NCBI GenBank assembly: GCA_951406725.2
Contig: OX597825.1
Coordinates: 75,578,001 to 75,642,000, forward strand
DNA: 64,000 nucleotides
Source: Octopus vulgaris
Taxonomy: Eukaryota
Direction of reading: 5' to 3'
Part shown: positions 12,461 to 64,000 of the stretch, one piece after another
How positions within the stretch are numbered: the stretch's first letter is position 1
How the letters are laid out: each line of letters opens with the position of its first letter
The notes under the pieces: model-generated
What the model saw: the letters and a program-made list of their open reading frames with translations, nothing else
Database searches by the model: none
Told to the model about the DNA's origin: nothing
Translations under genes and position numbers: made by a program

Positions 12461-12557
12461 GTCACACTGAAAAACATGGAAACTTCCAAAATATATTCCT
12501 GTCTATATCTTAATTATACTTCTCAAATTCCTTACCACGAGTGTTCATTGACAAATG
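12461..12557 (+). CDS. Candidate host-gene exon (phase 0 to 1), VTLKNMETSKIYSCLYLNYTSQIPYHECSLTN
   Basis: Long polypyrimidine tract ending tttactttag, donor gtaagt, 97 bp open in frame 0, phases fit both neighbouring exons. Confidence 0.65.
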
Positions 12558-12773
12558 GTAAGTTGATGAAAGATATTTCTTATTTCACTTTATTAGAAAT
12601 TATGAAATAGGTCTGCCTTTCTGCCTGTGTGACTTTTACTTGATGTTATTGTTTAAAAGGTGATTGAGCAAAATGAATTATAAATGACTGTATTGATGTT
12701 ACCACAAAGAATTTAATCCTCCCATTAATGCCAGTTTCCAAAGCCACATTCATGATAATATTTCCATAGTAGA

Positions 12774-12990
12774 AGGAAGCAAGCTGGCAGAAACATTAGC
12801 ACATTGGGCAAAATGCTTAATGGCATTTCGTCTACCTTTATGTTCTGAGTTCAAATTCTGCCTTGGTTGACTTTGCCTTTCATCATTATGGAGTCAATAA
12901 AATAAGTACCAGTTGCAGACTGGGGTCAATGTAATTGACTTATTCCCTCCTCAGAATGTGCTGGCCTTATGCCAAAATTTGAAGCCAATA
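12774..12990 (+). mobile_element. tRNA-derived SINE (family S1)
   Basis: aagctggcagaaacattagc..gagttcaaattctgcc..gactttgcctttcatc..aaataagtacc. Confidence 0.75.
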
Positions 12991-13024
12991 TTTCCTTGGT
13001 AGTGTTTGGAATTTTGCTTCTTAA

Positions 13025-13172
13025 ATACATGATTTCATGTTCAATCTCACAGTCTGGTACATTGGACAAGTGTCTTCTACTATAACCTCAGACACACCAA
13101 AGACTTGTGAGTGGATATGGTCAACAGAAACTGAAAGAAGGCCATTGTATATATGTATATACATACATATAC

Positions 13173-13213
<41 letters not shown>

Positions 13214-13490
13214 CAACCCATGCCAGCATGAGAAACATGTTAAATGGTGATGATGAGGATGAAGATGATACATATGTGTGTGTGTGTTTGTGTGTGCATT
13301 CCCCAACAACAGTTGATGTTGGCGTGTTTACATCTCCATGGCTTAGTGGTTTGGCAAAAGAGACCTATCAAATAAGTACCAGGCTTATAAAAAATAAATA
13401 AAGTATTAGAGATAATTTATTCAACTAAACTTTTACAAGGTGGTACCCCAGTATGGCCACAGTCTAGTGTCTGAAACAGTAAAAGATTAA
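13025..13490 (+). mobile_element. SINE (family S2) with internal TA/TG microsatellite and LINE-like 3' tail; small RTE-type tail inserted at 13211-13270
   Basis: Head gttcaatctcac..ttggacaagtgtcttctactata (antisense copies at 13640-13720 and 61145-61230); 3' end ggtggtaccccagtatggccacagtctagtgtctgaaac matches LINE A/B 3' UTRs. Confidence 0.7.
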
Positions 13491-13539
13491 AAAAATAGTG
13501 AGACATATACTTACATCAGATTTGAAATGAAGAACACCA

Positions 13540-13720
13540 CTTGTATGACAGTGGTGGTCATTTACAGTTATTGCTCAGACAAGGAAACACAAGCACCCTT
13601 TCCACACACACACATGTATACACATATATATATGTCAATTTTCTTTCACTTTCTGTCTACCAATTCTACTCTCAAGTCTTTGCTTGGTCAGAGGCTATCA
13701 TAGAAGGCATTTGCCCAAGG
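13540..13720 (-). mobile_element. SINE S2-related fragment
   Basis: ctttctgtctaccaattctactctcaagtc..tagaaggcatttgcccaagg is the reverse complement of the S2 head. Confidence 0.6.
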
Positions 13721-14199
13721 ACCCACCCAAAAAAACCTTCCTCAAATCTGAACCTGGAATATTTAAGTTTAAAAGTCAAAACCACTGATGAATAATAGTA
13801 TTTTTGGTAATAATAACCAGAGCTATTTTGATTAGAATCCTGAACTCTATTATAATACCCCTCTAACATTTTTTCCAGTTAATTATCTTTGACATTAGTT
13901 TATGAGAGGCAGAGAGAGCGAAAAAACAAAGAAGTAACTTTATTTTAGCACCTAAAGGCATCATGGAATATTCTAAAATGTTTTGGTGGACTTACAAAAA
14001 TCCTAGAATTCAGCTCTCTGTAGAGACCCTTCTTGTTGCTACTGAAAGCCTTTTGTCTTTGGATCCTCAATGAAAACTATTTTATTGAAGATAATTTTCC
14101 TTCCTCAACTTCCTCTCCAAGAAATTATTCTTATTGTAACTGACAACTATGTTTTAATTTATATGAGATATTCTTGCTTCCATCTTTTGACATATTCAT

Positions 14200-14712
14200 T
14201 AGATGTCTTGCAAACAACTTGTACATGCAAGTGCTACCAGTCAAAAACTCCACATACCGGAAGCCAGCAAGTGTATGGTGTCATCAGGAGAGGATGCATG
14301 CCATTTCGGGGCCTGCATCTCAATGGCATCACTGCGCACCGGCCCCACTCACTGATATGAGGCCCCGCTTGCTAGATCAGCTGGTTATCAAATAAAGCTC
14401 AATATTCTTCTAGCCATCGCTCATCATCTCTTTTTAACCAAATCCAGTGGCTAGCCTTCTCCACTGTAGTTTGGATATCGGTCATGGTGGTATTGACTTT
14501 ACGATGAGTTAGGCCTAACGATAACAACAGTCATCTCACACTGTGCCCAACGAACCCTCTACATCCGACTTCAATTGGAAAATGTTCTGCTTTCCAGCAT
14601 GCATCTTCACATTCCTTGAGGAGGTTTACATAACGGTCAGTCTTTTGAGCCTGAGTAGCGACCATATTATCTTCATGAGGAACCGTTAACTCGACTAGAT
14701 TTACAACTTACC
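14200..14712 (-). mobile_element. RLE-type non-LTR retrotransposon 3' fragment (HERO-like)
   Basis: My translation: VVNLVELTVPHEDN..KTDRYVNLLKECEDACWKAEHFPIEVGCRGFVG..*..VEKASHWIWLKRDD, the restriction-like endonuclease C-terminus. Confidence 0.8.
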
Positions 14713-14989
14713 TTCTTTCACACTCAGTAGCAGAAAGGATTGACAAAAGCATAAATGACAAACTCTTCTCGCTCCCTTTTATTTATAGTCGTTGTTTGGA
14801 TGAAGTAGAGAACACTTAGCTATAAAGATCATGTTTTAATCATTTGCTCTGTTTTGTTACTTTTTAGGTGCAATTTGTCCCTTAGACAATAATGCCAAAT
14901 TAATCGATCAGCCAATCAAATGCTCTCAAATAGATCACATGTTCTCTTGGTGGAAAATCCTTACACATCACTGTGGAGCCTAGCAACTT

Positions 14990-17345
14990 GAAATGAAATA
15001 ATAATGAAATTATTGTATACAGTACTTGGGTGCACGACAACTTGTCAAAAGTGCATATAAAACATATGCAGTTATGTACAAATGTCTGGGAAATGAACAG
15101 TGTATGAGTCAGATACATGCTTGCGTGTGTATAGAGGGGAGAAAATCAGGTGTAGTGCTGCCGAATCTCAGGAAGCATGGAAGTTTTGATGGATGCAGTG
15201 CTCCGACCACTAACAACTGATGCTGGCAGTTTGCTCCTTGCTTCAGCAACTCTTAGCGTGAAAAAGTGGGAGCTGTGCTGTTTTCTGACTTTGTAAACAT
15301 GTCCATGGGTGTTAGACAGGTGGAGTTTGAAAAGGTGCTCAGAGTTATTGTTAGTAAGAGGGTTAATAATTTTATGGGTGTCTGCCAAGTCAACTGCCAG
15401 ACGTCGGAGATTCAACATATCCATGCCCAGGGAAATAAGGCATTCAGAATATGGCAAATGCCTGATGGAGGTTATTCTCTTGGTTGCACGTTGCTGAATG
15501 GTTTCCAGGCGATTAATATCCTGGGCAAGATAGGGGTTCCAGACCAGTGATGAAAATTCCAGGTGAGGCCACACCATAGCTATATAAAGCCTCAGATTCT
15601 TGGCAATTTTAACAATGTGTTTTGTCCAACGCAAATCACTGTCGACAATAATGCCCAGGTCATGTTCACAAGAAGACTTTTTGAGATTAGTGTTGTGGAG
15701 GGAGTAGGTAGATGCTGGGTGGTTTTTCTTCCCAAAATGCATGGTGGTACATTTGTCCACAGCCAGCTTGAGTTGCCAGTCCATGACCCACTGTTGCATT
15801 GTGTCCAATTCTGATTGCAATAAAAATCTATAGTGTACAGGATCTGTCCTCTTTATTTCAAGGTACAGCTTGATATCATCTGCATATTTCAGTAGTGTAG
15901 CATTCTTTAAGTTGGCATCTATGTCATTAATATATGCAACAAATAAAAGGGAGCCAAGAACAGATCCCTGTAGTACACCAGATGTCATCTCATAGGGTGA
16001 AGAGTGCTGTCCTAGAACTGTGACGACGTCTTTTCGGCCAATAATGAAGGATTTCAACCAGTTATAGAGATCATCTCTTACACCTATTGCAGAGAGTTTC
16101 ACCATAAGTCTTTTGTGTGGCACAGAATTAAAAGCCTTAGCAAAGTCCAGGTAAACAACATCCACCCAGGATCCACGATCAGTGTTATGGGTATTGTCCT
16201 CAAGAAACGTGATGAGTTGATTACAGCAGCTGGAGTTATGAATAAATCCAAATTGTGATGGCTGGATGAGGCTGTGATACTTCCAGAAGTTCCAGAGGGT
16301 TTCTGTGACACACAATTCCATTAGTTTGGCGATGCAGCTAGTAAGACTGACAGGGCAATAGTTGACAGGCAATGTGCAGTCACCTCTTTTGAACAGAGGG
16401 ATAACACTGGCAGTTTTCCACTGCTCTGGAGTAACACCATTGCCAAGACAGAATTGAAAGTTGGTTTAGAATAAAGTACCCACTGTGTTTGAGAAGTATG
16501 TATGTAACACCATCAAGACCAAGAGAGGCATAGTTACATTTATTCTTAAGGTGATGTTGTAGCATTACTGGTGTAAATTTCATAGTGGTTACAGAGTCCA
16601 GTGTCAGATGTGATGGAGATGGAACATTTTGATCTTCGACAGTAAAGATGCCTGCATAGCATCCAGCAATGATTTCTGCACATTCTTTGGGATTGTCAGT
16701 AATCTGGCCTGTGTGGGGATTGTGAAGGGGGCTAGCTGGAGAGCGATGTCTCTGTTTTGAATGTACATACTTCCAGAACACTTTGCTGTCAGGCTTGGTT
16801 GCTATGCACTGTTCAAATTCAAGCACTACCTTTTTTTGTCACCTGCTTGAGATGGTTAGATGATCTATTGTGATTTTTCTTGTTGATCTCTGATTTATGC
16901 ATTTTGTATTCCTGTTCTGCAATGCAGCATTCTTTCCTGGCACGTCGGACTGCTGCAGTCTCCCAAATTGCATTATTGGGTAGTTTGTTGTGCTTGCGTG
17001 GTACTGATGCTGTTCATGCCATCTATACTGAATTCAGAATGTTCTGAAGTATAGTGTTCACATCTCCAGAGGAATAAAATTCAAGCCAGTTTGGGCGTCG
17101 CAGCTCAGTACAATAAGAGATCCAATCTGCTTTATTCCAGTCGAAGTGAGCAGTTTGAGGATGGTTGTGGTTTTTGTTACAACCAATCAGAGACAAGTTG
17201 GCCATGATCATGGAATGATCAGAGTCACCTAAAGGTTCTTCAGTAGTGATACTTATAAATGTTTCAGGAGAAGCGGTAAATAGCAGATCCAAAGTGCTGA
17301 TACATCTTGTGGGGGAGGTAACGACTTGGGACCAATTTGAATTCA
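14990..17345 (-). mobile_element. Old CR1-clade LINE (APE end, linker, RT), frameshifted
   Basis: LDLLFT..LGDSDH (APE); [32 protein letters not shown] (RT) in ORFs 17023-17292, 16380-16826 and 15146-16372. Confidence 0.9.
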
Positions 17346-18459
17346 GCTCCAGTTCAAGTTAAATAGATGAATTTCTCTCCGTTTAGGGAGTTTAGCTTGC
17401 GTTTGCACCAGGAAACTATTTGCTCACTTTCTCCACATTACAACACAATGAAATTCATCACCGCTGATATCACTGCTACCAGCTCTTACTGTATCTAATA
17501 CTGACATCGACAACATCATAATTCATCCTCGCATATGTAAACTCACAAAGTGAATATAACTTCTAGTGTTCCCACAGAAACCTTCATTTACCTTATATGA
17601 TGTTTAATGTTGTTTTACATTCATGTTGAATTATGCATCAATCTTATGTTCTCTTCAGAGAACACTTGTAATGTATGTATTACCAGTTCTTTTGGTGTAG
17701 TAGATTTTTGCTATTCTTGTTTATGTCTCCTCACTTACATGTATATTCTAACAAGTCGCTCCTTAAATTTCGCATCTCCCTTGTTCGATAAACACTGAGT
17801 TAAACTTGCAAAGCTGTTTATTTTCTCCTTTCAAATTTTAATGTTTAGTTTAGCAGATTATCAAGCTCTCAGTTTGGTCTCCCTGCTAAAATTCATTATT
17901 CATTATTCATTATTTCATATATAACATACAAACAACAAATTGTATATTACATATATTATAAATGTTTAATGTTATTAAACATTGTTGATGATAATTCTTT
18001 CTTTCATCAATTATTTGACTCACTAAAGATAACACAACCATAAATGTTACAACTATCATTTCTTTATTTCTTTATTCTTTTGATACCAACCTGCCTGAAA
18101 CTATTTAAGTTCTATGATACAAATTCCTTATCTTAAAGTGATCTGAATGAAATACTTCTGTCAAAATTTCATATTAATTTATATTCCAAACAAATGCTTA
18201 AAAGAAACAAAGTTACTTAATAAATTCTTCCTTATTCTCAAAATTAATTGAAACCAAGACATTGTATTTCAACAGAAACATGGTAAGAAAAAGGTTGATG
18301 TTAAGAAAATCAGTCATCTTTTGTTGAGAAATAACTCAAATCTCAAAATATCAAGTAATTCACCATTTTTCACAGCACATTTCTTTTTTTTTTTCAATGT
18401 ATTACAACTACTACACCATCTTTTTTATTGCTTTGTTTATTTTATTCTTTCTTTTCTAG

Positions 18460-18689
18460 ATACTGTGTGGAAAATAGAACTAACTTCTTGCCAAGAACTA
18501 ATTAGAGATATAAAAGTACAAATGTTTGTTAGAGTGACTGGCAGAGAAACAAATATTTCACGAAGTCTGATGTTCAAAAAGTTAGCTTATCTCCCAACAT
18601 TTTCTGCTTTTACCAATATTGGAAATATAAACATTGGTGAGATTGAAATATCCTTTGGAAACGAAAACAAATCTATTGACATATCCAAA
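18460..18689 (+). CDS. Candidate host-gene exon (phase 1 to 0), DTVWKIELTSCQE...VRVTG...IGEIEISFGNENKSIDISK; divergent PLAT/LH2-like
   Basis: Acceptor cttttctag after long pyrimidine tract, donor gtgaga, 76 open codons; residue pattern resembles PLAT beta-sandwich (inference). Confidence 0.6.
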
Positions 18690-19228
18690 GTGAGAACTTT
18701 TACCTTCTTGAATTCCATTAATATTTTAAAAAATTTTAATTGTTTATTTATTTATTTATTTATTGTAATTGTTGCTATTATTAATGACTCCCTAGGTTTT
18801 CTCAGCCTTGACTGAGAAAACCTGGGGATCAAAGACTTTCCAGAATGGACATCAAGTTGTTTTCTCAGAAGCATATACCTAAGGTCTTAATTCAGTTTTT
18901 TCTTTTTTCCTAAGACAATATGGTGAGTCTTAAAGGAGATTTGGTACCTATTTCTAGTAAGTCTAATAATCAGATGCAGGCTTACCTTATTCCCTGGAGT
19001 TATTTTGCATGTATCGGTGTGTATTTGTTTTTGTGTGTGTGTGCATATATATATAGGAAGGTGTACTATCATCACCATCATCAGCAGTGTCTTTACCACC
19101 ACCACCATCATCATCATCATCATTTCCTCTTTGGATTCTGAGATATTTTGGATGGGTTTATCATAGTATAAGACAACTATTATTCACAGTTAGTGTTCTC
19201 GTTACATATGTGTGTGTGTATGTATATG

Positions 19229-19407: not shown

Positions 19408-20812
19408 ATAAGAAAGTTGGTTTGTGAAAGCACGTGGGTGAATATATAGAAAATAGTAAAGAGTGAAAAAACTACAGAAGGCATAAATGTTAAAAAATAT
19501 TTGCGTCAATATGTCTGAAGAATATTAGAAAATTTTTTTTTTTTTTTTTTTCTCTTATAATGACATAATTTAAAAGAAGGACCAGTTTTGCATGTAGCTT
19601 TTCAAATTTCTTGCGACGTTATGTTTATGTTGAATAGAGTTTTCGTTATGTTTATGTTCAGGAGAGTTCTAAATAAGGGAAGGTAGTGAGTGATTTCTTC
19701 CGGTGTAAGGGAGATAATTGCTTAAAAATTTTTTCCTTTCCCTTGTGAATTTCTCTGTATCAGTATGTTCGGATTGTTGAGTCTGGGCTTGTACTTTTCA
19801 ATGAAGAATGTTTCTTTGTTTAGTCTAATTTGTGTTGATGATCCGAAAGCACATTGGTAAAATGGAAAGATTAAAAATTGTGGTAGTAGTTGTTTTGCAC
19901 ATTTCTCAATGTGCTCACTAAAAGGTATCATTCTATATTCTGGGAATGCAATCTGTTGTCGATGCAGTGTGCATCTACGTCTGAGTGATAGTCCCGTGGA
20001 ACCCACGTAGTCTTGGTGGCAGCCCGAGCATTTTATGACATAAATTATGTTTTCAGAGGCACAAGTAAAGTTAGATTTGATCTTGAATTTCTGTCCCTCT
20101 TTAAAGAGGAATTCTGGTCCTTCTAGCAGGTTAGGACATGTTGCACAGTTCGATCTACCACATTTTTTTACTTTTGCATCCGTAATTTCAGAAGACAATA
20201 TTGCCTTTGTGAGAATCTTTTTGAGTGATTTAGGCTGTTTGTAGCTTTTAATGATTTGGTGTATGTTTAGAATTTCCTTTAATTTGGGGTCTTTATGAAG
20301 TATTGGTAAATTCTGGGTGATGATGGTGAAGGCTTCTTTGTTTCTGGGGTTGTATGTAGATATGTAAGGTAGTATTTTCGGGGAAGGTGTGTTGTTGTGT
20401 TGAACTTTTCTTAAAGTTTCTATGTTGATTGCTGTTGCACGTCTGATCCCATCCTCTATGAGTTGAGCTGGGTAATGTCTGTCAATTAAGGTGTTTTTGA
20501 GTTCTTGCAGTCTAAAGTTCCTGGTATTCTGTTCTGACACTATTGTGCATATCCTTCTTGCAAGGTTGAAGAGGATGTTTGTTTTAGTGTGTCTTGGGTG
20601 GCATGAATTAAAAAGAAGGTATTGTTTGGCGTCTGTGGCTTTGTAAAAGATGTCTGTTTCTATTTTAAGGCTAATTTTTTTAATTAGTATATCCAAGAAT
20701 GGGAGCTCCTTTTGGTTGTATTCCATTGTGAACTGTATATTGGGTTAATGCTGTTCAATAGGTTTTTAAATTTTAGGAGTTTATCTGTGTTTTCATTCCA
20801 GAGAATAAAACA
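19408..20812 (-). mobile_element. Penelope-like element (Neptune-type), 5'-truncated just after the RT DD motif
   Basis: ORF 19722-20726: LPFLDI, SCHP, CGRSNCATC linker, FTCASENIIYVIKCSGC..YVGST GIY-YIG; TA tracts on both sides. Confidence 0.9.
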
Positions 20813-36690
<15,878 letters not shown>

Positions 36691-37164
36691 TACTTTGATA
36701 CTTTGATACTTTGATAGGTTTCGGCCATTATTGGCCCAGGCCATGTCTAACTTAATAGCACCACCTGGTGAAGTCTTTCAAGTCAGAATTTGGGCACTAT
36801 GGCCCACTCAAGTAGAGAGTTATTGTTTACAGAGACATATCCGGGTGTAGGGGGTTTATCCGGGATTTCTTGAAAGAATATGTCCAAAGACTTCTTGAAC
36901 CCTATAGGGTCAGTTTCTGTTTTAATGTGTTTTGGTGTAATGTTAAAGAGAGCGGGGCCAATTGAGGTGAAATAATTGTGCCGTATTGTTGTTATGAGAT
37001 GAGAGTGCGATTTTTGTTTTGGGCGGATGGCACGGGGCCCAAGCCTTGGATGTACCTTAAAGGTGATGCCAACATCATTTGGGCAATGCTGATGGAATAT
37101 TTTCCACATCATGCACATGATGTAGCGCTCACGACGACGTTGGAGAGAATAGAGTTTTAGCTTT
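36691..37164 (-). mobile_element. LINE family C copy C2 (3' 470 bp)
   Basis: Near-identical reverse complement of 25700-26168, tail (TATCAAAG)3. Confidence 0.95.
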
Positions 37165-38101: not shown

Positions 38102-40353
38102 TGGCCTGAATGTCTCTCCTCGCCAGACATCGACGTGAAACTTCAACAATTCATGTCTGTAATGCAAGCCATATGCTACAAATGTGTCCCAGAGAGAAAG
38201 GCCACTGTACACAAGAACAAAATCCCCAGAGAGAGGAAAATTTTAATGAGACGGCGTACGAAATTTTCAAATCGCCTAAACAAACAGATTGAAAGCAGTG
38301 AAAAGTCCCGCCTAAAAATAAAACTGTTGGAAATCGAAAAATGTCTGCAACTCTCCCATGAAAAAGAAAGAGCAGACAAAGAAGCCTGGGCTATAGAAAA
38401 CATAAAATCTAACCCCAGAGCTTTCTACAGGTATGCCAAAGAAACAGCTACAGTGCACTGTAGAATAGGGCCACTCCTCGAAAAGGATGGCACACTTACA
38501 GGAAAACCAATGAGGGTAAGTGAAATACTGAATGAGCAATTCAAGAGTGTTTTCACTCCACCCCTTGGGCATCTCCAAATCACCAATCCAACTGACTTTT
38601 TTACCACTGCAGATATAAAATCAGAGGCGGCGACGATAGATTACATCGATATAAATGAAGACAATGTAACCAAGGCTATAGATGAAATGAAAACAGACTC
38701 AGCTACTGGCCCCGATGGATTCCCGGCAATCCTCCTAAAAGCATGTAAGAGAGTCCTAGCAAGACCACTGCAGTTCCTCTTTCAGAGCTTCCTTGCAGCT
38801 GGCAAACTTCCAGGAAAACTGAAGGAAGGTAAAATATGCCCCATTCATAAAGGAGGTAGCAGAGCGGAAGCCAAGAACTATAGACCTATCTCTCTGACCT
38901 CACACATCAGCAAGGTCATGGAACGAATAGTCAGAAGGAAGCTGATCACCTTCCTTGAAGAGAATGACTTGCTGCCCGACACCAAACATGGTTTCCGACC
39001 AGGGAGAAGCTGTTTAACTCAGCTCCTACAACACTATGACTGGGTGCTGAAACGCCTGCTCAACCACTCAAATGTGGAAGTGATATATCTCGACTTTGCA
39101 AAGGCCTTTGATAAAGTCGATCATGGAATGATATGTCACAAACTGCGTGATCTCAACATAGTTGGAAAACTGGGAGAATGGCTTCATGACTTTCTGAAGG
39201 ATAGAAGTCAGGTGGTAGTAGCCAATGGGGCCACCTCCATTAACACACAAATAGTGAGCGGTGTTCCGCAGGGCACTGTTCTGGGACCACTACTGTTCAT
39301 AATGGCCCTCTCAGACATGCCCTCAGCCACGCAGAGAGCCACGATCACAAGTTATGCAGATGATACAAAAGTTTCACAGGCAATACAGAACCCTGAGGAC
39401 ACTAAACACCTGCAATGTGAGCTGGACGAAATATACAAGTGGGCTGAAAAGAATAGCATGCAGTTCAATGCTGGAAAGTTTCAAGCTTTATACTATCAGC
39501 ATGCAAAACTGAATGCAATACCCAATGAATACACTGGACCCGGAGGGATTGCAATCCCAGAGGCACAATCAGTGCGTGACCTGGGTATTCACATGAGTGA
39601 TGACGCGACCTTTCATGTACATGTTGCTAAACTGACAATGAAATGTAGACGGCTGGCTGGCTGGATTCTTAGAACCTTTAGAACAAGAGAACAAGAAACC
39701 ATGATGGTCCTCTGGAAGACACTTGTCCTAAGCCACTTTGACTATTGCTCTCAGCTATGGTCACCATCCAGTGTCAAGTTGATCACAGAACTTGAGGCGA
39801 TCCAACGAAGCTACACAAAGAAGATAGCCTCTATGCAGAATGTAAGCTACTGGGAAAGACTCAAGAGATTAAAATTATATTCCCTGGAGCGTAGGCGGGA
39901 AAGATATGCCATAATATACATCTGGAAGATCCTGGAGGGAAGTGTCCTGAACTTTGGCATCGAGAGTTACGCAAATGCCAGAACTGGGCGCCACTGCGTG
40001 GTGCCTAGGACTCCAAACCTGCCATCAAGATGTAGGACAAGATACTGTGATAGCCTGGGCTTCCGAGGCCCACAGCTCTTCAATATCCTCCCGAAGAACC
40101 TGAGAGACCTGCATGGGGTGGATACAGATGTCTTTAAAATGAAGCTGGATCTCTTCCTGTCAGGTGTCCCAGATGAACCAACTTCACGGCAGGAGGGGCA
40201 GATGAGGGCAGCTGCATCGAACTCTCTCATGCACCAAATAGCAGTTGCTAGAAAGCCTCCATGAAGTGAGACCAAGTAGCAACACCAAATGGCGGTGCCC
40301 CAGCATGGCCACAGCTCATAAGCTGAAACTAGAATCAATCAATCAATCAATCA
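38102..40353 (+). mobile_element. LINE family B copy B2 (5'-truncated, uninterrupted RT frame to 40264)
   Basis: [31 protein letters not shown]; (ATCA)n tail. Confidence 0.96.
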
Positions 40354-41193
<840 letters not shown>

Positions 41194-41273
41194 AAGTTGA
41201 GTTGTGGGGTATCGCACGAGTGGGATTATATAAGAAAAAAGGTTTGAAAATGCAATTTAAACGATGTTTATTT

Positions 41274-41314
41274 ACTTAACCGGTTTCACTCTTTGGTAAA
41301 AGATTGTCAAAAGT
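41274..41314 (-). ncRNA. Minimal hammerhead (U3-A8 variant), inverted copy
   Basis: Reverse complement of 46024-46064. Confidence 0.6.
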
Positions 41315-41330
41315 TACATTTAAGGAAACA

Positions 41331-41555
41331 TTGAATAATATGGGTTCAAAAAAGTTTTTTACATAATTGTCACATTGAATATTATGCATTCAAAAAAGTT
41401 TTTTACATAATTGTCACATTGGATATTATGGGTTCAAAAAAGTTTTTTACATAATTGTCACATTGGATATTATGAATTCAAAAATGTTTTTTACATAATT
41501 GTCACATTGGATATTATGAATTCAAAAATGTTTTTTTATACATAATTGTCACATT
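41331..41555. repeat. ~44-bp minisatellite, about 5 units (mirrored at ~45780-46008)
   Basis: Unit ttcaaaaaagttttttacataattgtcacattggatattatg. Confidence 0.9.
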
Positions 41556-41969
41556 ATTTGGGAAAATTTGGCAGAAAAGGATAAAACAAATATATTATTG
41601 GGAATTGGTTGCGTTAATTATTGGTTGTCGCAAATTGTCACATTACATGTATATATATACAATCTTTGGTATATATATACAGCGTTTTGACAGCAAAAAT
41701 TAAAATGGCTTTTTTGTACATCTCAGAATATTTTAAGTATGTTTTTACTGACCTGTCAGTATTAGCAGAAAGGCTGAACTGAGAGAACAGAAGAAGTAGC
41801 CAATGTGGTGTATACTTCCCCTTTATGCATGAATGATTTTGGGGTTATCAGGAGGTTAGTATGCGGGTGTGAATAGATGTGTCCGTGCCTGCTGGTCAGA
41901 CAGCATCTGTTTGTCACACACATATATATACACACAAACACACACACACACAACAACACACACACACAA

Positions 41970-43967
41970 ATTTTGCGATTACATCTCCAACTTCCCTTAT
42001 GGTGAACTCCCACAACCTAAACTCAAACCCAACACCAGTAAAAGAGAATGGGAAATCATCCATACGCTACGAGACAATCATGACGTCACAATAAAGGAAG
42101 CTGATAAGGGTAGTAAGGTCGTTGTTATGAATACTGAGCAATATAAAAACTCTGTATCTCTCCTTTTAGAGGATACCACATACTACGAAAGAGTAGTCGA
42201 CTACCAGCAATCCAAAACAATGACCAATCTGAAGGCACTCATTTACCAACACCGGAATGACTTGACAGCAAAGGAATGCGACTACATTACTAAATTTAAT
42301 TGCAAAACCAGCACACTCTATGGGCTTCCAAAATACACAAGAGTCAAATTATCACAGAAGCTTGCAAAAAGTCCACTTCAACCTGCATCACTATACCACA
42401 TCCCACTGATCTCAAACTGAGACCAATAGTGGCAGGCCCAAGTTGTGAAACACACAGACTTAGCAACTTTATAGATATCATCTTAAAACCAATACTGAAA
42501 CACATTCCAAGTATTGTAAGAGATGACCTGGACCTATTAAACCATCTCCCCAAACATGCCGATAAAGACACCTTAATCGTTTCTTTTGATGTTATTAATC
42601 TTTACACCACAATCCCACATGAATTTGGACTGGAAGCCATTAAATTCTGGCTGGATAAATATCCCAATGAGATCCCGGAAAGAATTAAAAAAGAATTCAT
42701 AATTGAGGGCCTCAAATTTATTCTGCAAAACAACTTCATGTATTTCCACAACAACACTTACAGACAGGTCTCAGGGACTGCAATGGGTACGAAAGTTGCA
42801 CCTACCTATGCAAACCTGGTGATGGCCTACCTGGAATCACATATCTATGAAAAATCCAAATATAAGTACGGCCAGTCTTTCCACAAATACCTGTTGGAGA
42901 ACTGGAAACGCTACTTAGATGATTGCCTCATCCTATGGTCCCACACACTCGACCAACTTATAGACTTCAAAAACCTTATCAACAGTGTAAATAACAACAT
43001 TCAATTCACAATGGAATATAGTCAGGACCAACTCCCTTTTCTTGACATCCTAATCATTAAAAAAGGCGTCAACATTGAAACTGACATCCATTACAAACCC
43101 ACTGACTCTAAACAATACCTTCTATTCACCTCCAATCACCCAAAACACACAAAGACAAATATCCCCTTCAACCTAGCGAGAAGAATCTGCACTATTGTCT
43201 CAAATGACACAACACGAAATAGAAGACTCCGGGAACTAAGGGCAATTCTTCTCGAAAGACATTACCCGGCATCACTAGTAGACAACGGAATAGAACGGGC
43301 CAAATCAATCAACATTCAAGACCTTCGAAAACCCAAACACATCCACAGTACAGTCAATAGCCTCCCTTATCTCTCAACACACAACCCAAGGAATGCAGAA
43401 GCTTACACTATTATATACAACAACATTCCACAACTAAATCAAGACCCACGCCTGAAAAAAATACAGGCAGCTCATAAAATAATAAAAAGTAAGAGACAAC
43501 CTAAATCCCTAAAAAACCTCCTCACCAACGCAAAATTACACAACACAAACCCACCGCCCACCATCAAAAAATGTGGTCGCCCCAACTGTAAGACCTGCAT
43601 CCACCTCATTGAGGGATCGTCGTACAAGTTCCACTCGGGACACACATTCATCATAAAAAATAACTTCACGTGCGCATCAAAAAATTTACTCTACGTCATA
43701 AGGTGTGAAGGATGCCACGAAGACTACATAGGGCAAACGAGCCTTACCCTCAGAGACAGAATGACAGTTCACCGACAACAACTGAGGGACCCCTCCACAA
43801 GACAGATACCACTAAGTGGACACTTAGACCTTTGTGCACACAATAAGTCCCCCAAATTCTTAGTCTTCCCACTATACCAATGCTCGGACAACACCACAGA
43901 CCAAACACGAATAAATAAGGAAAGTAATCTTATTCAAAAATACAGACCACAACTAAACATACTCTAA
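41970..43967 (+). CDS. Penelope RT-GIY-YIG polyprotein, 5'-truncated, one frameshift at ~42331
   Basis: IKEADKG, LYGLPK/IHK, LRPIVAGP, SFDVINLYT, GTAMGT, RYLDD, CGRPNCKTC, LLYVIRCEGC..YIGQT. Confidence 0.92.
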
Positions 43968-44118
43968 CATACCCCCTGGAAGCACATCCAGAGCAAGCAC
44001 ACAGGGACGCGCGCACGCTCACAGCATATCGTGCGGGCGGGCACATGCGCGCATCGGCACGCATAGGACACACTAGCGGGCATTGACCGCACACATACGT
44101 GGCATGCACACGCATGCA

Positions 44119-45163
44119 TTATATATATGTAGGTGATGTATGTGTGTGAGTGTTGTGTGTGTGTGTGTGTGTGTGTGTGTGCACACTGTGTGCGTGTGTG
44201 TGTATATGTGTGTGTGCGCGCGTTGTTTGTGTGTGTGTGTGTGCACGTGTGTATATATGTGTGTGTGTGCACTGTGTGCGGGTGTGTGTGTATGTGTGTG
44301 TGTGTGTGTGTGAGCATTGTGTACGTGTGTATGTATTTACATATGTATCTGTTTTTATATATATATATATATGTGTGTGTGTGTTGTGTGTGTATATGCA
44401 TGGTATGTGTGTATATGTTAGTACTTTGTTTGTGTGTATGTGCGGCATGTAGAGATATATTTGAGTGTGTACGCTATAGGTTTGTAATTTGTGTGTGGGG
44501 GGGGGGGGGGTGAATTTTTTATATATATATATGTGTGTGAAAAAATATATGTATGTGCATGTATGTATGTATGTATGTGTGTATATATATATATATGTGT
44601 ATATATATGTGTGTGTGTGTATGTGTGTGTGTGTATATTTATTTGCATGTTTATGTGTGTATAAACATGTACATTATTTGCATGCGCATTGTGTATATGT
44701 ATATTGTATGTATGTGTATTGTATATGTACGTGTACAATTAAGTGTATATATTTGTGTGTATGTGTGCACTGTATATATGTATATTGTAGGTGTGCTATA
44801 TGTGCATGAATACATGTATATGCATTGCGTGTATATATATGTATGCATTGTGTGTGTATGTATGTTATGTGTGTGTGTGTGTATATATATATTATATGTA
44901 TGCGTATGTGTATGTGTATGCATTGTATGTATGTGTGTTGTGTGTATATGTGGTACATCTATGTATGTGTATGTAAACACTATTTATATGTATATGCATT
45001 GTCTATATATATATATATTATATGTATGTATTACGTATGTATATTGCATGCATATATTGTGTATGTATATTACTTACATGCTGTATGTGTGTATTGTATG
45101 TGTGTATATATATGCTAGGTGTATTTGTGTGATATTTATATTATGTATGTATGTGTGCGTGTG

Positions 45164-45218
<55 letters not shown>

Positions 45219-45420
45219 TTATATATCTGTGTATGTTATATATAGATACATGTTATATTTGTGTGCTGTGTGTATATGTGATATATGTGGGTGCGTTGTG
45301 TGTGGGTGTGTGTGTTCTGTGTGTGTGTGTGTTGTTTGTATGTGGTGTGTGTTTGTATACTATGTGTGTGTGTGTGTGTGTTGTTGTGTGTGTGTGTGTT
45401 TGTGTGTATATATATGTGTG
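44119..45420. repeat. Degenerate (TG/TA)n array inside the Penelope 3' region
   Basis: Direct reading. Confidence 0.9.
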
Positions 45421-46023
45421 TGACAAACAGATGCTGTCTGACCAGCAGGCAAGGACACATCTATTCACACCCGCATACTAACCTCCTGATAACCCCAAAA
45501 TCATTCATGCATAAAGGGGAAGTATACACCACATTGGCTACTTCTTCTGTTCTCTCAGTTCAGCCTTTCTGCTAATACTGACAGGTCAGTAAAAACATAC
45601 TTAAAATATTCTGAGATGTACAAAAAAGCCATTTTAATTTTTGCTGTCAAAACGCTGTATATATATACCAAAGATTGTATATATATACATGTAATGTGAC
45701 AATTTGCGACAACCAATAATTAACGCAACCAATTCCCAATAATATATTTGTTTTATCCTTTTCTGCCAAATTTTCCCAAATAATGTGACAATTATGTATA
45801 AAAAAACATTTTTGAATTCATAATATCCAATGTGACAATTATGTAAAAAACATTTTTGAATTCATAATATCCAATGTGACAATTATGTAAAAAACTTTTT
45901 TGAACCCATAATATCCAATGTGACAATTATGTAAAAAACTTTTTTGAATGCATAATATTCAATGTGACAATTATGTAAAAAACTTTTTTTGAACCCATAT
46001 TATTCAATGTTTCCTTAAATGTA

Positions 46024-46064
46024 ACTTTTGACAATCTTTTACCAAAGAGTGAAACCGGTTAAGT
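46024..46064 (+). ncRNA. Minimal hammerhead (U3-A8 variant) in Penelope 3' end
   Basis: ACTT-TTGACAA-TCTTT TACC AAAGA-GT-GAAA-CCGG-TT-AAGT; palindromic stem III. Confidence 0.6.
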
Positions 46065-46103
46065 AAATAAACATCGTTTAAATTGCATTTTCAAACCTTT
46101 TTT

Positions 46104-56061
<9,958 letters not shown>

Positions 56062-57343: not shown

Positions 57344-58820
57344 AGGAGTAGTTTATAGAGCCAAGGTGCAAGTGGAAGGCTCATCGGAATACAAGACATA
57401 CACAGGGGCTTCAGAAAATTCATTTAAAACAAGATTTTATTCTCATAAGAATTCTTTTAAATACCCAGAGAATAGAAAGAAAACCAGCCTAGCAAAATAT
57501 GTCTGGGAACTAAAAGAAAAGGAAGCCCCACCTTTCAACGTGACATGGAGCATTCTGGACAGGGCGGCACCATACAGGCATGGAGCTTACAAATATAATT
57601 TCAAGTGCAGGCTTTGCTTATTAGAAAAAATGCATATATTATTCAAAGACAATAATTCTTTGAATCAAAGAAGTGAATTAATGAACTTATGTAGGCACAA
57701 GGCTAAATTTAAAATGTCGAATATAAATATACCATATGGATAGAGTATATATTTTGTATTTTGATTTTTTGATTTTGATTTTGACTCTTGAGCGCTACAA
57801 CGGACCTATAGCAAAGTCTTATTGTTTCTACATATATATTAGGAAAAACCTACAAACTTTGTTTTCATGTTATTGTATTGCATAAGATTACCTTGATTAT
57901 TTATATTACCTTGATTATTTATAAATGACCCAAAATAGGATGTTATATTTTATTTTATAGGTCTTTCGTATATATTTTTATTAATGCACCCATTTTTTAA
58001 AAGCAATGTTTTTTTATAAAAAAAGCAATGTTGTCAAATTTAGAATGTTTATATAAGTTTGTGTATAGCAAAGCATATGTATTTGTAAGCATGCGTATCT
58101 GTGTATGTGTGAGTGAAAGTATGCTTGTGCTTAAGCACACATATACACGACGGTATGTATATGTATCAATTCAAACTTGTGTATGTATACAGGCCTCTAT
58201 AGATGCCAAATAACATCGCTACAATTTTTTTCCCCACCCCTCCTCCGTTCCTTTTTCTCTCTTTCCCTTTCTTTCGTTCCCCCTCCTTGCTCAGTATATG
58301 AGAATTGCTACATAGATGAATTTTAGCTTGCGTGCGAGACGGTTTGCGTGAATATATGTACACATGCTTTTATGTGTATAATTTAGATTCATATTCATAC
58401 GTCTGTATATGTATGTATGGCGTTTACGCGCATCCTTTTGTGTATGTTGATATATATATGTGGATTTTAATATAAATATGTATTGCAGTATTTATAACAG
58501 GTTTAATTTCTATGCATTAATTTGTACTGTCTTCATTAACGGCAACAGGTTTTTTCCTCGGTATTTTCCTCGGATTTTATAATTTTTATAAGTTTTTATA
58601 TATATATACATATATTTTTGACCTTTTTGTTTATCGCTCGAAGATTGACCGTTTTTTCTAAAGGGCCAATCAAACAAGTCCATTTCTTTTTAAAGGTGTA
58701 GCGTTTGTAAGAGTATAGATTGAATTAATATATATGTTCCATTCTAGCAAAAACTGTCTGATGAACGGCAACGAGAAACTCAGAGTAACAGATTTTGTTG
58801 ATTTTTCTGCTGCATAAAGT
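57344..58820 (+). mobile_element. Penelope-like 3' fragment (GIY-YIG domain plus 1.1-kb 3' UTR), same type as 34848-35568
   Basis: GVVYRAKV..YTGASENSFKTRFYSHKNSF..TSLAKYVWEL..CRLCLLEK..LNQRSELMNLCRH. Confidence 0.87.
58745..58800 (+). ncRNA. Type I minimal hammerhead ribozyme
   Basis: TAGCAAAAACTGT-CTGATGA-A CG GCAA CG A-GAAA-CTCAGAG-TA-ACAGATTTTGTTG; 13-bp stem I with one mismatch. Confidence 0.85.
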
Positions 58821-59716: not shown

Positions 59717-61010
59717 CATCATTATCATCGTCATCGTTTAACATACGCTTTCCATGCTGGCATGGGTTGGACGCTTTGACTACAGACTGGTGATCCAGAT
59801 GGCTGCACCAGGCTCCAATCTGATCTGGCAAAGTTTCTACAGCTGGATGCCCTTCCTAATGACAACCACTCCGAGAGTGTAGTGGGTGTTTTTATGTGCT
59901 GTTGGCACAAGGTCCAGTCTGGTGGTACTGGCAATGACCACGCTCAAAGGTGTTTCTTACTTGCCACCTGCACAGGAGCCAGTCTGACGGCACTGACAAC
60001 AACCACACTTGAATGTTGTTTTTCCCATGCCACTGGCACATGTACCAGTAAGTCGATACTGGCAACGATCACGCTTAAATGGTTATTTTTACATGCCACC
60101 GGTACAGGAGCCAGTCAGCAGCTCTGGCAACGATCACACGCGTATGGTGCTTTTAACGTTCCACTGGCACAAGTGCCAATCAGGTGGTACTGCCATCGGC
60201 CATGTCAGTGATTTTGATTTCACTTTCCTCAACAGGTTTTTGCAAGCAAAGTTTATTGTCCAATGAATGAAGGTTACTCATAAGTAGGCTGGGTATACAC
60301 CACTGCCATAGGCCATGAGAAATAGTCTCACTTGGCTTGCCGGATCTTCTCAAGCACAGCATATCTCCAAAGGTCTCAGTCACTAGTCATTGCCTTTGTG
60401 AGGCTCAATGTTTGAAGGTCATGCTTCACCATCTCATGTCAGGTCTTCCTGGGTCTACCTCTTCCACAGGTTCCCTCAACAGCTGTCCTCATCCATTTGC
60501 AACACATGACTATACCAGCACAGTCGTCTCTCTTGCACACCATATATGATGCTTCTTAAGTACAACTTTTCTCTCAGGGCACTTGCACTCTGTCATGTAT
60601 GCACACTGATATTGCACAGCCAGTGGAGCATACTGGCTTCATTCCTTGCAAGCTTATGCATGTCCTCAGCATTCACGGCCCATGTATCATGGCTATTCAT
60701 ACACATGAATCATACAGTCTACCTTTTACTCTGAGCAAGAGGCCCTTTGTCACTAGCAGAGGTAGGATCTGTCTGAACTTTGCCCAAGCTATCCTTACTC
60801 TAGCACCTACTCTTTCACAGCATCCACCTCCCACTACTGACTTGGTCACCTAGGTAATGGAAGCTATCAACTACTAGTTTTTCTCCCTGGAATGTGGCAG
60901 AAGTTGTTCTCTGCACATTTTCAGTGTTTATTGCTCCTGAGCATCTACCACATACAAAAACTGTCTCCCCAGTTAGTATTTGGTCTTGATAGCCATTCAT
61001 AACTGCCTCA
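59717..61010 (-). mobile_element. Decayed RTE-clade LINE 3' portion
   Basis: FVCGRC..VVDSFHYLGDQVSSG, RLCWYSHV, GRGRPRKT*; tandem ~60-bp 3' UTR units 59880-60200; (GAT)n tail. Confidence 0.85.
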
Positions 61011-61144: not shown

Positions 61145-61232
61145 CATAGCAGAAGACACTTGTCCAAGGTGCCATGTTGTGGGACTGAACCCAAAATCAT
61201 GCAGTTGGCAAACTTCTTACCATACTGCCACA
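61145..61232 (-). mobile_element. SINE S2 head fragment
   Basis: agaagacacttgtccaaggtgcc..gggactgaaccc (antisense B-box and body). Confidence 0.65.
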
Positions 61233-61329
61233 TCTGTGCTCAGACAACCCATTCTACAAGTCCTAAATAATGGGATAAGTTATGTGTGCCTTGGATGAAT
61301 GGTATAAATGCATAATTTAGTATTTTGTT

Positions 61330-61960: not shown

Positions 61961-64000
61961 CATATACATACATATATACATACATAGATACATATACATA
62001 TATATAGTTATTCATTTCTATTTGTTTATTTATCTGTGTATTTATTATGTTTTTGGTATCCTCTATCGTCATATGTTGTGGTGTGTGCTATTGCTCCATT
62101 CTAGTTTTCTATTCAGGCTAGGTTTATTTTCTATTATATGTGTAGCCTCTGTAATTTGTCTAATTGTTGCATCTGCTCTATGTGTGGACAATTTCTTAAT
62201 CTCTATGTTATTGATTGATCCCCCGTGTTCCTGTTCGGCGTGTTGGTACAGAATCGATGAGCTTTTACCTTCCTTGAGTTGTCTCCAATGTACATTCACC
62301 CGCTTTCCTATGCTTCTTGCCGTTTCCCCTACGTATGTTATTGTCTTGTTACTGCATCATCCCTCTATACATCTTATACTATAGACTACATTTCTGGCTT
62401 TACAGTTTGTTTGTGGGCTAAATCTACATACAGTGCAATAGTTATCCGTACAGGGGGTTCTACTAAAAGGATAGGTTCTACCAATTATAGATTTGATAGG
62501 GTTGCCTGGCTTTTCAACAACCTTAATTCTTAGTTTAAGTTTATCTAGGGTCCTTCTAAAGCGGTACGCCAGTTCACCTCCAGGGGTGGTGTCAACGAAC
62601 ATGACACTCTGGTATTTATGGCTATCATACCAAGTGTTGGCCTTCCCTATTTTCTTTTTTGTCCTTTCTATAGTGTTCCATGACTTGTTCCTATAGAGTG
62701 GGCAAATCCCATTCCTATCATTACATAATATATTATCAAATTTCTTCATGGCTCCTTTGTATACTCTGATCCTTTCTTTATGGCTGTAACCTGAGAACTG
62801 CATGCGGTGAATGAAATACTGTATGTGTCTCTTTAATTCTGTAGGCTCGCACATGCGTGACACATTTCTCATTATTCTGACGAGGTCTGCCATCAAAATA
62901 TTGAATTTGGCATTGCCCGCAATGGCTGAGTTCCGGTGGATCAGGTATTTTGAGGCCATAGGTTTGGCATAGTAAGGATTTGGGTTTTATTTTTCACAAT
63001 TTCTAGCCAGAGTTCAGTGTCTAGTACTGGTAGTCTATGGTTGGGGTGTTTAGTGGGGTAGTCTATTGTGACCTTAATACTCTGGTGGATGGAGTTAGCT
63101 ATTTGCTGGATGCTCTCCATAGTGTTAGTTTCTATTACTATATCAACATTACTCTCTTGTGGGGGTGCCTTTACCACTATGTTGATATCATCAACATAGC
63201 GAGAGTACATGTTTACGAGTATGGATTTTTGCAGTAGGCGTTCTTTAAGCCTTCTGTTCCACCATACCATGAAAAGGTTGGCCACATCACCAGCGATACT
63301 AACACCGATGGCTGCCCCCTCGTCCTGGGCATATACTTTATTATTAAATTTAAACGTGTGGCCTTTTAGGGTAACTCTTATACTAGCTCCTAGTGCATGT
63401 GCGATCATTTTCTTTACCTGATGGACATTTGCGGGGCTCCATATGGCTCTGGTCCATCCGCGCCATCTTTCTATATGAGTCTTCCTAGCCATAGAAGTAA
63501 TTGTAGGCAGTCTACCTCTTAAACATCTACTGGGGCAGAAACTACTATGATTATGTTTATCTAAGTATTCATTATTACATGTCAGTCTAAGTAGGAGGCC
63601 CAGTTCTTCTGTGTTGACATTACAGAACTCCACCTGGCTCTCGTTGATCATCTCCATGCACTTCTCCACTGCAAAATCTACGTCAATCGATGGGTATAGG
63701 GATACCACATCCATGCTACCTACTATACATCCTGTCAAGTCACAAGTTTTGTTACAGTCACTGATCCTGCTTAGGAGATCTTCTGTGCTGTCACACACAT
63801 CAGGTGACATCCTGATTATAGGGCGTATGATCATTGAGAGGAAGTAGGAGATTCTGTAATTGCTAGCGATATTCGCTCCACAGACTGGTCTTGTTGGTGG
63901 TCCTGCTATAGGGTCAGTAAAAACTTTATGGTCCTTGCGAAGTCCATACAGTGCCGGGATATCATTGTTCCAGGCTTGGAAATTATTCGCAGTACGTTTC
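61330..64000 (-). mobile_element. Penelope-like element, Naiad-like (RT plus C-terminal GIY-YIG), runs off window; left boundary approximate
   Basis: [74 protein letters not shown]; frameshift ~62965; ORF ends 62069. Confidence 0.88.
61444..61488 (-). ncRNA. Degenerate hammerhead in the Naiad-like 3' UTR
   Basis: GGACCA-CTGATGC-G GTCACA GGAG TGTGAC-GAAA-GAAC-TC-TGGCC; perfect stem II, weak stems I and III, A9 changed. Confidence 0.55.

What the first reader, a model, noticed from the sequence alone, without database searches (positions are those of the whole stretch)
40270..40353. Co-varying two-hairpin 3' signal shared by LINE families A, B, C and a SINE
Seen: hairpin 1 is GGY-G-GTGC CCCA GCAT-G-GCC in A and B, with a longer-loop version in C (26102-26128). 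Hairpin 2 differs in sequence but always pairs and is followed by AAAC: B CAGCT-CATA-AGCTG, A GGCC-TTCG-GGCT, C GGCCA-ATAA-TGGCC, SINE at 13439-13478 CAGTC-TAGT-GTCTG. Each LINE family then has its own tail repeat (TTTAAGGA, ATCA, TATCAAAG). Known: L2/CR1-group RTs recognise 3' stem-loops, and SINEs borrow partner LINE tails (eel UnaL2/UnaSINE1). Inference: this is the RT recognition element, and these LINEs mobilise SINE S2.
Basis: partly seen in the sequence, partly recalled or inferred. Interest (0 to 1): 0.7.

Follow-up and report, generated by a model that had tools for sequence, protein, structure and literature searches.

The report
Shared two-hairpin tail of CR1 retrotransposons
Three families of jumping genes, probably from an octopus, and one parasitic short element end in the same pair of back-to-back RNA hairpins, most likely the handle their reverse transcriptase grabs; this is a known kind of signal, here in an apparently undescribed form.

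Summary
The observation largely holds. All 9 LINE copies with a 3' end (A x2, B x5, C x2) carry two directly abutting hairpins, then (G/A)AAAC, a family-specific tail repeat and a (TA)n array. On five sequences, 57 of 60 stem cells pair and 4 of 12 pairs change on both sides. With only four lineages this is modest evidence (P 0.007-0.2 per comparison). 'Always pairs' is overstated: SINE hairpin 2 has a U·U mismatch, and A's hairpin 2 is unstable in context. A, B and C are CR1-group LINEs of one subclade. One outside member, L001, shows a similar fold, but a window-only covariance model misses it. This fits a stringent-type RT recognition tail, as shown for UnaL2/ZfL2 and proposed for bivalve CR1/SINE pairs. 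The SINE tail derives from the A/B lineage, not C. It is equidistant from A and B, has its own terminal repeat and does not sit in (TA)n, so its partner was probably a sister family. Beyond the finding, these LINEs look (TA)n-targeted, which I did not find reported for CR1. Nothing is functionally shown.

The parts
40290..40311 (+). Family B (copy B2) hairpin 1: 4-bp outer stem, G·G mismatch, 4-bp inner stem, CCCA loop
40312..40325 (+). B2 hairpin 2: 5 bp, 4-nt loop, abuts hairpin 1; followed by AAAC 40326-40329
40333..40352 (+). B2 terminal repeat (AATC)5, joined directly to a (TA)n array
40353..41188 (.). (TA)n array at the B2 3' junction
38102..40352 (+). LINE B2, 5'-truncated, 720-codon uninterrupted RT frame
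32507..34682 (-). LINE B1, 5'-truncated, frameshifted; hairpins 32539-32574; apparent 13-nt target-site duplication marked by an AA interruption
46884..50211 (-). LINE B3, longest copy, frame in two pieces (506 and 555 codons); hairpins 46911-46946
50466..51487 (-). LINE B4, 5'-truncated; hairpins 50496-50531 with U-G in place of U-A; apparent 15-nt target-site duplication
51968..55027 (-). LINE B5, uninterrupted 990-codon APE+RT frame (P0001); hairpins 51994-52029
54056..54100 (-). Basic stretch between EN and RT (P0001 residues 310-324); candidate tail-binding region by analogy with ZfL2 (inferred)
   Evidence: PMC4176376
21605..22726 (-). LINE A1; hairpins 21638-21673; tail (TTTAAGGA)3
28333..31014 (-). 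LINE A2 (795-codon RT frame, P0002); hairpins 28359-28394
22902..23933 (-). B-like fragment (95% to B), endonuclease part only, no 3' end
24657..26167 (+). LINE C1, frameshifted; hairpin 1 26100-26130, hairpin 2 26131-26144; tail (TATCAAAG)2
36693..37162 (-). LINE C2, 470 nt; hairpins 36723-36767
12996..13490 (+). SINE S2, single decayed copy: tRNA-like head and CORE-like motif (clearer in partial copies at 61146-61240 and 13614-13718), internal microsatellite, A/B-type tail
   Evidence: head and CORE assignment by inspection; ARAGORN and Rfam found nothing
13437..13477 (+). SINE tail core: hairpin 1 13439-13458, hairpin 2 13460-13473 with a U·U mismatch, then AAAC

Best explanation
The element is the stringent-type 3' recognition signal of a subclade of CR1-group LINEs. 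SHOWN (sequence): each intact 3' end reads stop, short UTR, hairpin 1 with a central mismatch, abutting hairpin 2, (G/A)AAAC, a short family-specific repeat, then (TA)n; the copies are young, independent, 5'-truncated insertions. INFERRED (from UnaL2/ZfL2 experiments): ORF2p binds the folded tail through the basic EN-RT linker, reading helix shape generally and loop bases specifically. The APE endonuclease nicks a (TA)n array, the AT-ending terminal repeat anneals at the nick, and reverse transcription starts in the repeat with slippage, giving variable unit numbers. The two helices probably stack coaxially. A tRNA-derived SINE captured a tail of the A/B lineage and was mobilised in trans by an A/B-type family, probably not the exact copies present here and not C.
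For: 9 of 9 intact LINE 3' ends carry it, and nothing else in the window scores above 10.7 bits. Hairpin 1 is more conserved than synonymous sites (19/22 vs 129/240, P=0.0014). 57 of 60 cells pair; with partners slid by 1-3 columns only 23-46% pair; 4 of 12 pairs change on both sides. A and C each keep 12 of 13 B pairs despite 7-8 stem substitutions. The architecture occurs in A/B, C and L001, three separate branches of one 78-row clade with SH-aLRT 98, and in 6-17 of 1000 dinucleotide shuffles. In all five sequences the junction base extends either helix 1 (A, C) or helix 2 (B, SINE, L001), so no linker opens. A basic EN-RT stretch is visible across the clade. Precedent: PMC4176376, PMC1636434, PMC4824008.
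Against: Only four independent lineages in the window. Null simulations give P 0.007-0.08 for LINE pairs and 0.04-0.20 for the SINE, and the shuffle control ignores relatedness. Hairpin 2 is outcompeted in context for A and the B4 variant. A and the SINE fail the whole-UTR fold test. The window-only model does not detect L001 (0 matches at its 3' end). The descriptor that does was written after seeing L001 and also hits 1 other of 57 loci and 16 other window sites. No functional data.
Confidence: 0.8

Rival explanations
1. Only hairpin 1 is the recognition signal, as in single-stem UnaL2/ZfL2 or amniote CR1 tails. Hairpin 2 is a loosely constrained spacer, or serves RNA stability or 3'-end formation.
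For: Hairpin-2 pair probabilities fall to 0.04-0.15 (A) and 0.0-0.05 (B4) in some contexts. The SINE copy has a mismatch there. Hairpin-2 identity between A, B and the SINE is only 5-6 of 12.
Against: Hairpin 2 holds 2 of the 4 two-sided changes and 19 of 20 cells pair. C and L001 keep it despite deep divergence.
Confidence: 0.25
2. One reading: families A, B and C themselves mobilise SINE S2.
For: The SINE shares the CCCA loop and 18 of 22 hairpin-1 bases with both A and B. In ZfL2 the loop sets specificity (PMC4176376), so A or B proteins might still accept it.
Against: No similarity to C above shuffles (342 of 1000). Different terminal repeat, no (TA)n flank, equal distance from A and B, and a decayed copy, whereas LINE copies are 98.5-99.6% identical within family.
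Confidence: 0.2
3. The shared tail is neutral common descent, and the pairing is chance in a short G+C-rich stretch.
For: Small sample; per-comparison P up to 0.08 for LINEs under a high transition bias; loose descriptors hit about 1 site per 6.6 kb.
Against: Excess conservation over four-fold sites; architecture kept between A/B and C, whose RT segments share only 54% in the best segment and 28-38% in two others; strict terminal position in 9 of 9 copies.
Confidence: 0.07
4. On the (TA)n context: the arrays are not endonuclease targets but are synthesised by the RT, are a passive sink for any element, or are inflated by assembly error.
For: Penelope-like elements sit in the same arrays. Only one window was seen. 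L001 is not followed by a TA array. Interruptions are 55 TT to 10 AA on the + strand whatever the element's orientation, which could be a sequencing bias.
Against: Each copy has its own 5' truncation point. None of the 10 LINE pieces splits another element into matching halves, although pure TA runs are only 29% of 20813-55947. B1 and B4 show the same interrupted TA stretch on both sides, as a target-site duplication would.
Confidence: 0.25

Closest known systems
Eel UnaL2/UnaSINE and zebrafish ZfL2-1/ZfL2-2 (L2 clade, stringent type; PMC1636434 abstract, PMC4176376 parts 1-3 of 5)
   Same: 3' stem-loop with an internal mismatch, terminal repeat, tail shared with a SINE, basic region between EN and RT.
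   Different: As described in the parts read, these have one stem-loop; here two abut. The sequence is unrelated, the protein here is CR1-like, and function is shown there but not here.
Oyster CR1-14_CGi with BivaV-SINE2 and BivaCORE-SINE1 (PMC4824008 section 11; PMC4758252 passages; PMC11481361 passages name CR1-Zenon rather than CR1 as the likely partner of V and Core SINEs)
   Same: Mollusc CR1-group LINE and tRNA-derived SINEs sharing a tail with conserved stem loops and compensatory mutations; the same argument as this finding.
   Different: The motif CATGGCC was found once in the one searchable supplement file, in a SINE head and not a tail (file 1 and the figure were not seen). Zenon elements have poly-A tails (PMC13343379 section 15); these have microsatellite tails.
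Amniote CR1 3' UTR: hairpin plus octamer microsatellite (PMC4316615 passages)
   Same: CR1, heavy 5' truncation, hairpin followed by a short tandem repeat (8-mers in A and C).
   Different: One hairpin and one conserved octamer there; here two hairpins and a different repeat in each family.
Octopus tRNA-CORE SINEs OR1/OR2 (named in PMC4824008 and PMC4758252 passages; abundance of tRNA-Core SINEs in PMC8967140 passages)
   Same: tRNA-like head, CORE-like motif, probable octopod host.
   Different: No octopus SINE appears in the SINE/LINE pair review PMC3747384 ('octopus' 0, 'OR1' 0 occurrences).
Microsatellite-targeting retroelements: Tx1, R1 and RLE clades (PMC4640811 passages); Naiad Penelope-like elements for (TA)n (PMC8557442 passages)
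   Same: Insertion into simple repeats, hard-to-see target-site duplications.
   Different: Those belong to other clades; PMC4640811 lists Tx1 and R1 as the APE clades with target specificity.

Membership tests
CR1-group LINE | ORF2 with APE endonuclease followed by RT | tested here: met
   Pfam PF14529/PF03372 and PF00078 on B3 and B5; RT on A and C
CR1-group LINE | RT groups with named CR1 references | tested here: inconclusive
   Tree of 195 rows holds no named CR1/L2 reference; the CR1 label rests on recalled C-terminal motifs. PDB has only L1 and R2 as near relatives
CR1-group LINE | 5' truncation and 3' tandem repeat rather than LTRs | tested here: met
CR1-Zenon | Poly-A tail | tested here: not met
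   Tails are 4- or 8-nt repeats; definition from PMC13343379 section 15
CR1-Zenon | No ORF1 | tested here: inconclusive
   No copy can be shown to be full length; B3 has only about 70 nt before its long frame
Stringent-type LINE tail | Conserved stem-loop just before the terminal repeat | tested here: met
Stringent-type LINE tail | Tail shared with a SINE | tested here: met
   SINE vs A and B: 0 of 1000 shuffles; vs C: 342 of 1000
Stringent-type LINE tail | Statistically significant covariation | tested here: inconclusive
   4 of 12 pairs two-sided, four lineages only
Stringent-type LINE tail | Tail needed for retrotransposition and bound by ORF2p | not testable with these tools
   needs assays
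tRNA-derived CORE-SINE (OR1/OR2 type) | tRNA-derived head with A and B boxes | tested here: inconclusive
   Box-like motifs by inspection in the 61 kb copy; ARAGORN and Rfam gave 0 hits
tRNA-derived CORE-SINE (OR1/OR2 type) | CORE domain | tested here: inconclusive
   CCTTGGG, named as conserved in CORE in PMC5786205 (passage), is exact in 1 of 3 copies; no CORE consensus was available
Target-specific non-LTR retrotransposon | Most copies inserted in one repeat type | tested here: met
   9 of 9 3' junctions and 10 of 10 5' junctions in (TA)n, one window only
Target-specific non-LTR retrotransposon | Holds genome-wide and is set by the endonuclease | not testable with these tools
   no host genome available

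The most novel reading that the evidence does not exclude
A deep, little-described CR1 subclade, marked by a basic IPR..LMRRR linker and a C-terminal PDEP..SNSL extension, recognises a coaxially stacked two-helix RNA. Hairpin 1 is the shared handle and hairpin 2 plus the tail repeat are the family barcode. In octopods this lineage has become (TA)n-specific, so repeated nested insertion with target duplication builds kilobase TA-array/LINE clusters. It is also the previously unnamed partner lineage of an abundant octopus tRNA-CORE SINE.
Probability: 0.3. Interest if true: 0.62.

Novelty: new member of a known kind. Interest (0 to 1): 0.38.

Why it matters
The principle (stem-loop tails read by the RT and borrowed by SINEs) is established, including for mollusc CR1/SINE pairs, so the core claim would not surprise a specialist. 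The locus has three smaller values. First, it points to the LINE lineage behind an octopus-type SINE; SINEs make up about 11.6% of the O. vulgaris genome (PMC13282606, part 1), and I found no partner named in the papers searched. Second, A and B share the hairpin-1 loop but differ in hairpin 2 and tail, while C differs in the loop. That is a natural set for testing which part gives family specificity in a CR1, where tail binding has been mapped for L2 (PMC4176376). Third, if (TA)n targeting holds genome-wide, it adds a CR1-type element to the short list of target-specific APE LINEs and helps explain long TA arrays.

Tried and rejected
Rfam at gathering thresholds: 0 matches in 64 kb. ARAGORN: 0 genes. 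The first covariance model R1 had hairpin 2 mis-registered by one column and included a misaligned L001; it was never used. Alignment A4 misplaced C and was dropped. Counts on A2 (64 of 72 cells paired) are depressed by MAFFT's misalignment of L001, so A5 without L001 was used. Model R2 over 80 related loci gave 4 matches, all E>=1.6 and none at a LINE 3' end; on L001 and L002 without filters it gave 7 chance matches and missed the L001 tail. Of 80 loci only L001 and L002 fall in the subclade, and L002 ends before its 3' end. Tandem duplication as the source of the B copies was rejected, because their 5' ends differ. No convincing target-site duplication for the SINE. The first column comparison for A was off by one and was redone. 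The tree left out RT segments under 200 aligned residues (150 for window elements), used SH-aLRT only, and placed C on 162 residues. Literature: the 16-nt motif was found in 0 papers. Searches for CR1 with TA-repeat targeting and for octopus SINE partners listed nothing describing this system. Repbase, Dfam, SINEBase entries, Ohshima and Okada 1994, and the supplements of PMC13282606, PMC3531059 and PMC4824008 file 1 were not seen and may already hold these families. Source names and host range of the unnamed protein relatives stayed unchecked, as did viral and metagenome contig collections.

Full report
SETTING. The window is eukaryotic, repeat-rich DNA. The nearest named protein relatives of the LINEs are from Argonauta hians: P0007 is 57% identical to family B and groups with A and B at SH-aLRT 100, and P0077 groups with C at 94. 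An octopod cephalopod host is therefore inferred; the resemblance of the window's SINEs to octopus SINEs is recalled, not tested. Between about 20.8 and 56 kb lie ten pieces of APE/RT LINEs separated by (TA)n arrays of 166-2165 nt: A1, A2; B1-B5 and a B-like fragment without 3' end; C1, C2. Copies are 98.5-99.6% identical within family over their 3' 900 nt (C: 463 nt), and A and B about 75%. B5 holds an uninterrupted 990-codon frame. Each copy starts at a different point of the longer copies, so they are independent 5'-truncated insertions, not tandem duplicates.

OBSERVATION. Local folding gives hairpin 1 and hairpin 2 in A, B and C, abutting with no linker. Pair by pair, the hairpin-1 base is U-A (B), C-G (A), A-U (C), A·A (SINE). 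The G·G mismatch is common to all four window lineages. One inner pair is G-C in the LINEs and A-U in the SINE. The innermost hairpin-2 pair is U-A (B), U-G (B4/B5), C-G (A, C, SINE). On alignment A5 (B2, B4, A1, C1, SINE) 57 of 60 cells pair, 4 of 12 pairs change on both sides, 1-5 of 500 shuffles reach four of the five measures (102 of 500 for the fifth), and slid controls pair 23-46%. The tool warns that these shuffles ignore relatedness. Taking B's own predicted structure as the hypothesis, A and C keep 12 of 13 pairs with 7 and 8 stem substitutions (P 0.013-0.080 and 0.007-0.056, depending on transition bias) and the SINE keeps 11 of 13 (P 0.04-0.20). Hairpin 1 is also more conserved in sequence than neutral sites: 19 of 22 between A and B against 129 of 240 four-fold sites, P=0.0014. 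The structure is therefore likely real, but covariation is suggestive rather than significant.

RESULTS AGAINST. The SINE's hairpin 2 contains U·U, and its fold is no better than shuffles (z -0.58). In 80-, 150- and 300-nt contexts hairpin 2 of A has pair probabilities 0.04, 0.64-0.72 and 0.13-0.15, and that of B4 0.84-1.0, 0.04-0.05 and 0.0-0.01; B2, C and L001 keep it. In whole-UTR folds 3 of 5 sequences show the architecture, against 6-17 of 1000 shuffles.

OUTSIDE EVIDENCE. A scan of genome contigs returned 80 loci, which I read as eukaryotic LINEs lodged in microbial assemblies. In a 195-row RT tree, A, B, C, L001 and L002 fall in one 78-row clade (SH-aLRT 98), with A/B, C and L001 on separate branches. 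The clade has a basic EN-RT stretch (strict pattern in 22 of 74 clade proteins, 0 of 23 outside) and a C-terminal PDEP..SNSL-type extension (25 of 74, 0 of 23); the low in-clade counts partly reflect divergence and partial proteins. L001 (40% identical to B), the only outside member with a 3' end, folds into a long hairpin 1 with a 2x2 internal loop, an abutting 5-bp hairpin 2, GAAGAC and a tandem repeat like C's (z -1.55). However, a covariance model built from window sequences alone does not find it. The descriptor that does was written afterwards and hits 2 of 57 loci with at least 100 nt after the stop, plus 16 other window sites. L001 therefore supports an old shared architecture only weakly. 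The more distant loci end in other stem-loops or none (output partly cut).

THE SINE. Alignment with two partial copies shows that the element begins near 12996 with a decayed tRNA-like head and a CORE-like motif (by inspection, with CCTTGGG named as a CORE hallmark in a passage of PMC5786205). Its similarity to the LINEs covers only the last 39-50 nt. It is significant for A and B (0 of 1000 shuffles each) but not for C (342) or L001 (628). It is 29 of 41 identical to A and 30-31 of 41 to B, as far as A is from B. It ends in its own A-rich repeat and is not flanked by (TA)n. Only one tail-bearing copy exists in the window. It carries an A/B-lineage tail; which family moved it cannot be told, and a sister family is more likely than A, B or C themselves.

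MECHANISM. In zebrafish ZfL2-1/2-2, deleting or swapping the stem-loop abolishes retrotransposition, the loop gives specificity, and a basic region between EN and RT binds the RNA (PMC4176376, parts 1-3 of 5 read). In UnaL2 a bulge and a U-U mismatch in the stem are required (PMC1636434, abstract). By analogy, hairpin 1 with its central mismatch is the main handle, and residues 310-324 of P0001 are the candidate binding stretch. In all five sequences the junction base lengthens either helix 1 or helix 2, so the helices always abut; coaxial stacking is a reasonable inference. Tail repeats vary in unit number between copies and run into the target through AT-type overlaps, as expected if reverse transcription starts in the repeat after annealing to the nicked target. 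All of this is inference; none of it was assayed.

(TA)n CONTEXT. All 9 3' junctions and all 10 5' junctions lie in (TA)n, in both orientations. Pure TA runs are 29% of 20813-55947 and 0.35% of 1-19000, and no LINE piece splits another element into matching halves. B1 and B4 carry the same interrupted TA stretch on both sides (13 and 15 nt), which reads as a target-site duplication. Interruptions are enriched within 20 nt of junctions: 14 in 400 nt against 51 in 10,444 nt, P=9e-8. Against targeting: only one window, Penelope-like elements share the arrays, L001 has no TA array, and the TT-over-AA strand bias (55 to 10) is unexplained and may be technical. PMC4640811 (passages) names Tx1 and R1 as the APE clades holding most target-specific families; five searches listed no TA-targeting CR1.

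COMPARISON AND NOVELTY. It works like a stringent L2/CR1 tail. A mollusc precedent with stem loops and compensatory mutations exists: CR1-14_CGi with two bivalve SINEs (PMC4824008, section 11; PMC4758252 and PMC11481361, passages). It fails the poly-A criterion for Zenon (PMC13343379, section 15). Exact clade membership is unresolved, because no named reference was in the tree. PMC13282606 (part 1 of 3) lists 13 recently active CR1 families in O. vulgaris without describing tails in the part read. Also seen: PMC3747384, PMC4316615, PMC8557442 and PMC8967140 as passages; PMC3531059 as a search listing only.

VERDICT. Real feature, known kind of signal, probably undescribed instance; partner claim only loosely right. 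Interest 0.38; the (TA)n-targeting, stacked two-helix reading has probability about 0.3 and would merit about 0.6.

Noticed in passing
window 20813-55947: Ten CR1-type LINE pieces and several Penelope-like pieces all sit between long (TA)n arrays; apparent (TA)n targeting, with visible target-site duplications for B1 and B4.
   Followed up: partly
window TA arrays 20813-55947: Interruptions are 55 TT to 10 AA on the + strand whatever the orientation of neighbouring elements, and are about 7-fold enriched near LINE junctions. Unexplained; may be technical.
   Followed up: partly
window 41242-46096: Penelope-like element: 555-codon RT frame (42300-43967) with a GIY-YIG-like C-terminus by inspection, framed by 671-bp inverted repeats at 99.7% that hold a 44-bp minisatellite; typical inverted pseudo-LTR layout.
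   Followed up: partly
window 19722-20810, 34849-35568, 57350-58820, 62000-64000: Further Penelope-like fragments (by inspection; 19954-20781 is 66% identical to 42955-43780), several abutting TA runs; 386-bp direct repeat at 56067-56452/56631-57016.
   Followed up: no
window 22902-23933: B-like fragment (95% to B) that lacks the whole 3' part and breaks straight into (TA)n, in line with and upstream of A1; deletion, template switch or assembly join.
   Followed up: partly
window 15146-17400 (-) and 7800-9500 (+): Older decayed RT-bearing LINEs of other lineages, not in TA arrays and without this tail.
   Followed up: partly
window 2917-3146, 3658-3811, 12756-12994; 5140-5472, 10036-11047, 59717-60646: Two other dispersed repeat families (72-81% identity between copies), SINE-like and RTE-like by recalled appearance.
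   Followed up: no
window 3839-5099: Decayed mariner-like element with 38-bp inverted ends; the mariner label is by inspection and recall.
   Followed up: no
window 39119-39165 and equivalents in B1, B3, B5, A2 (29512-29559): An internal RT-coding site also folds into two abutting hairpins in both A and B; within the descriptor's chance rate.
   Followed up: no
P0001 C-terminus; L001 2200-2284: The subclade has a C-terminal PDEP..SNSL-type extension absent from 23 outside proteins; it could co-evolve with the two-hairpin tail.
   Followed up: partly
L001-L080: Many bacterial and archaeal genome records carry contigs with eukaryote-type LINEs (240 matching stretches), most likely contamination.
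   Followed up: no
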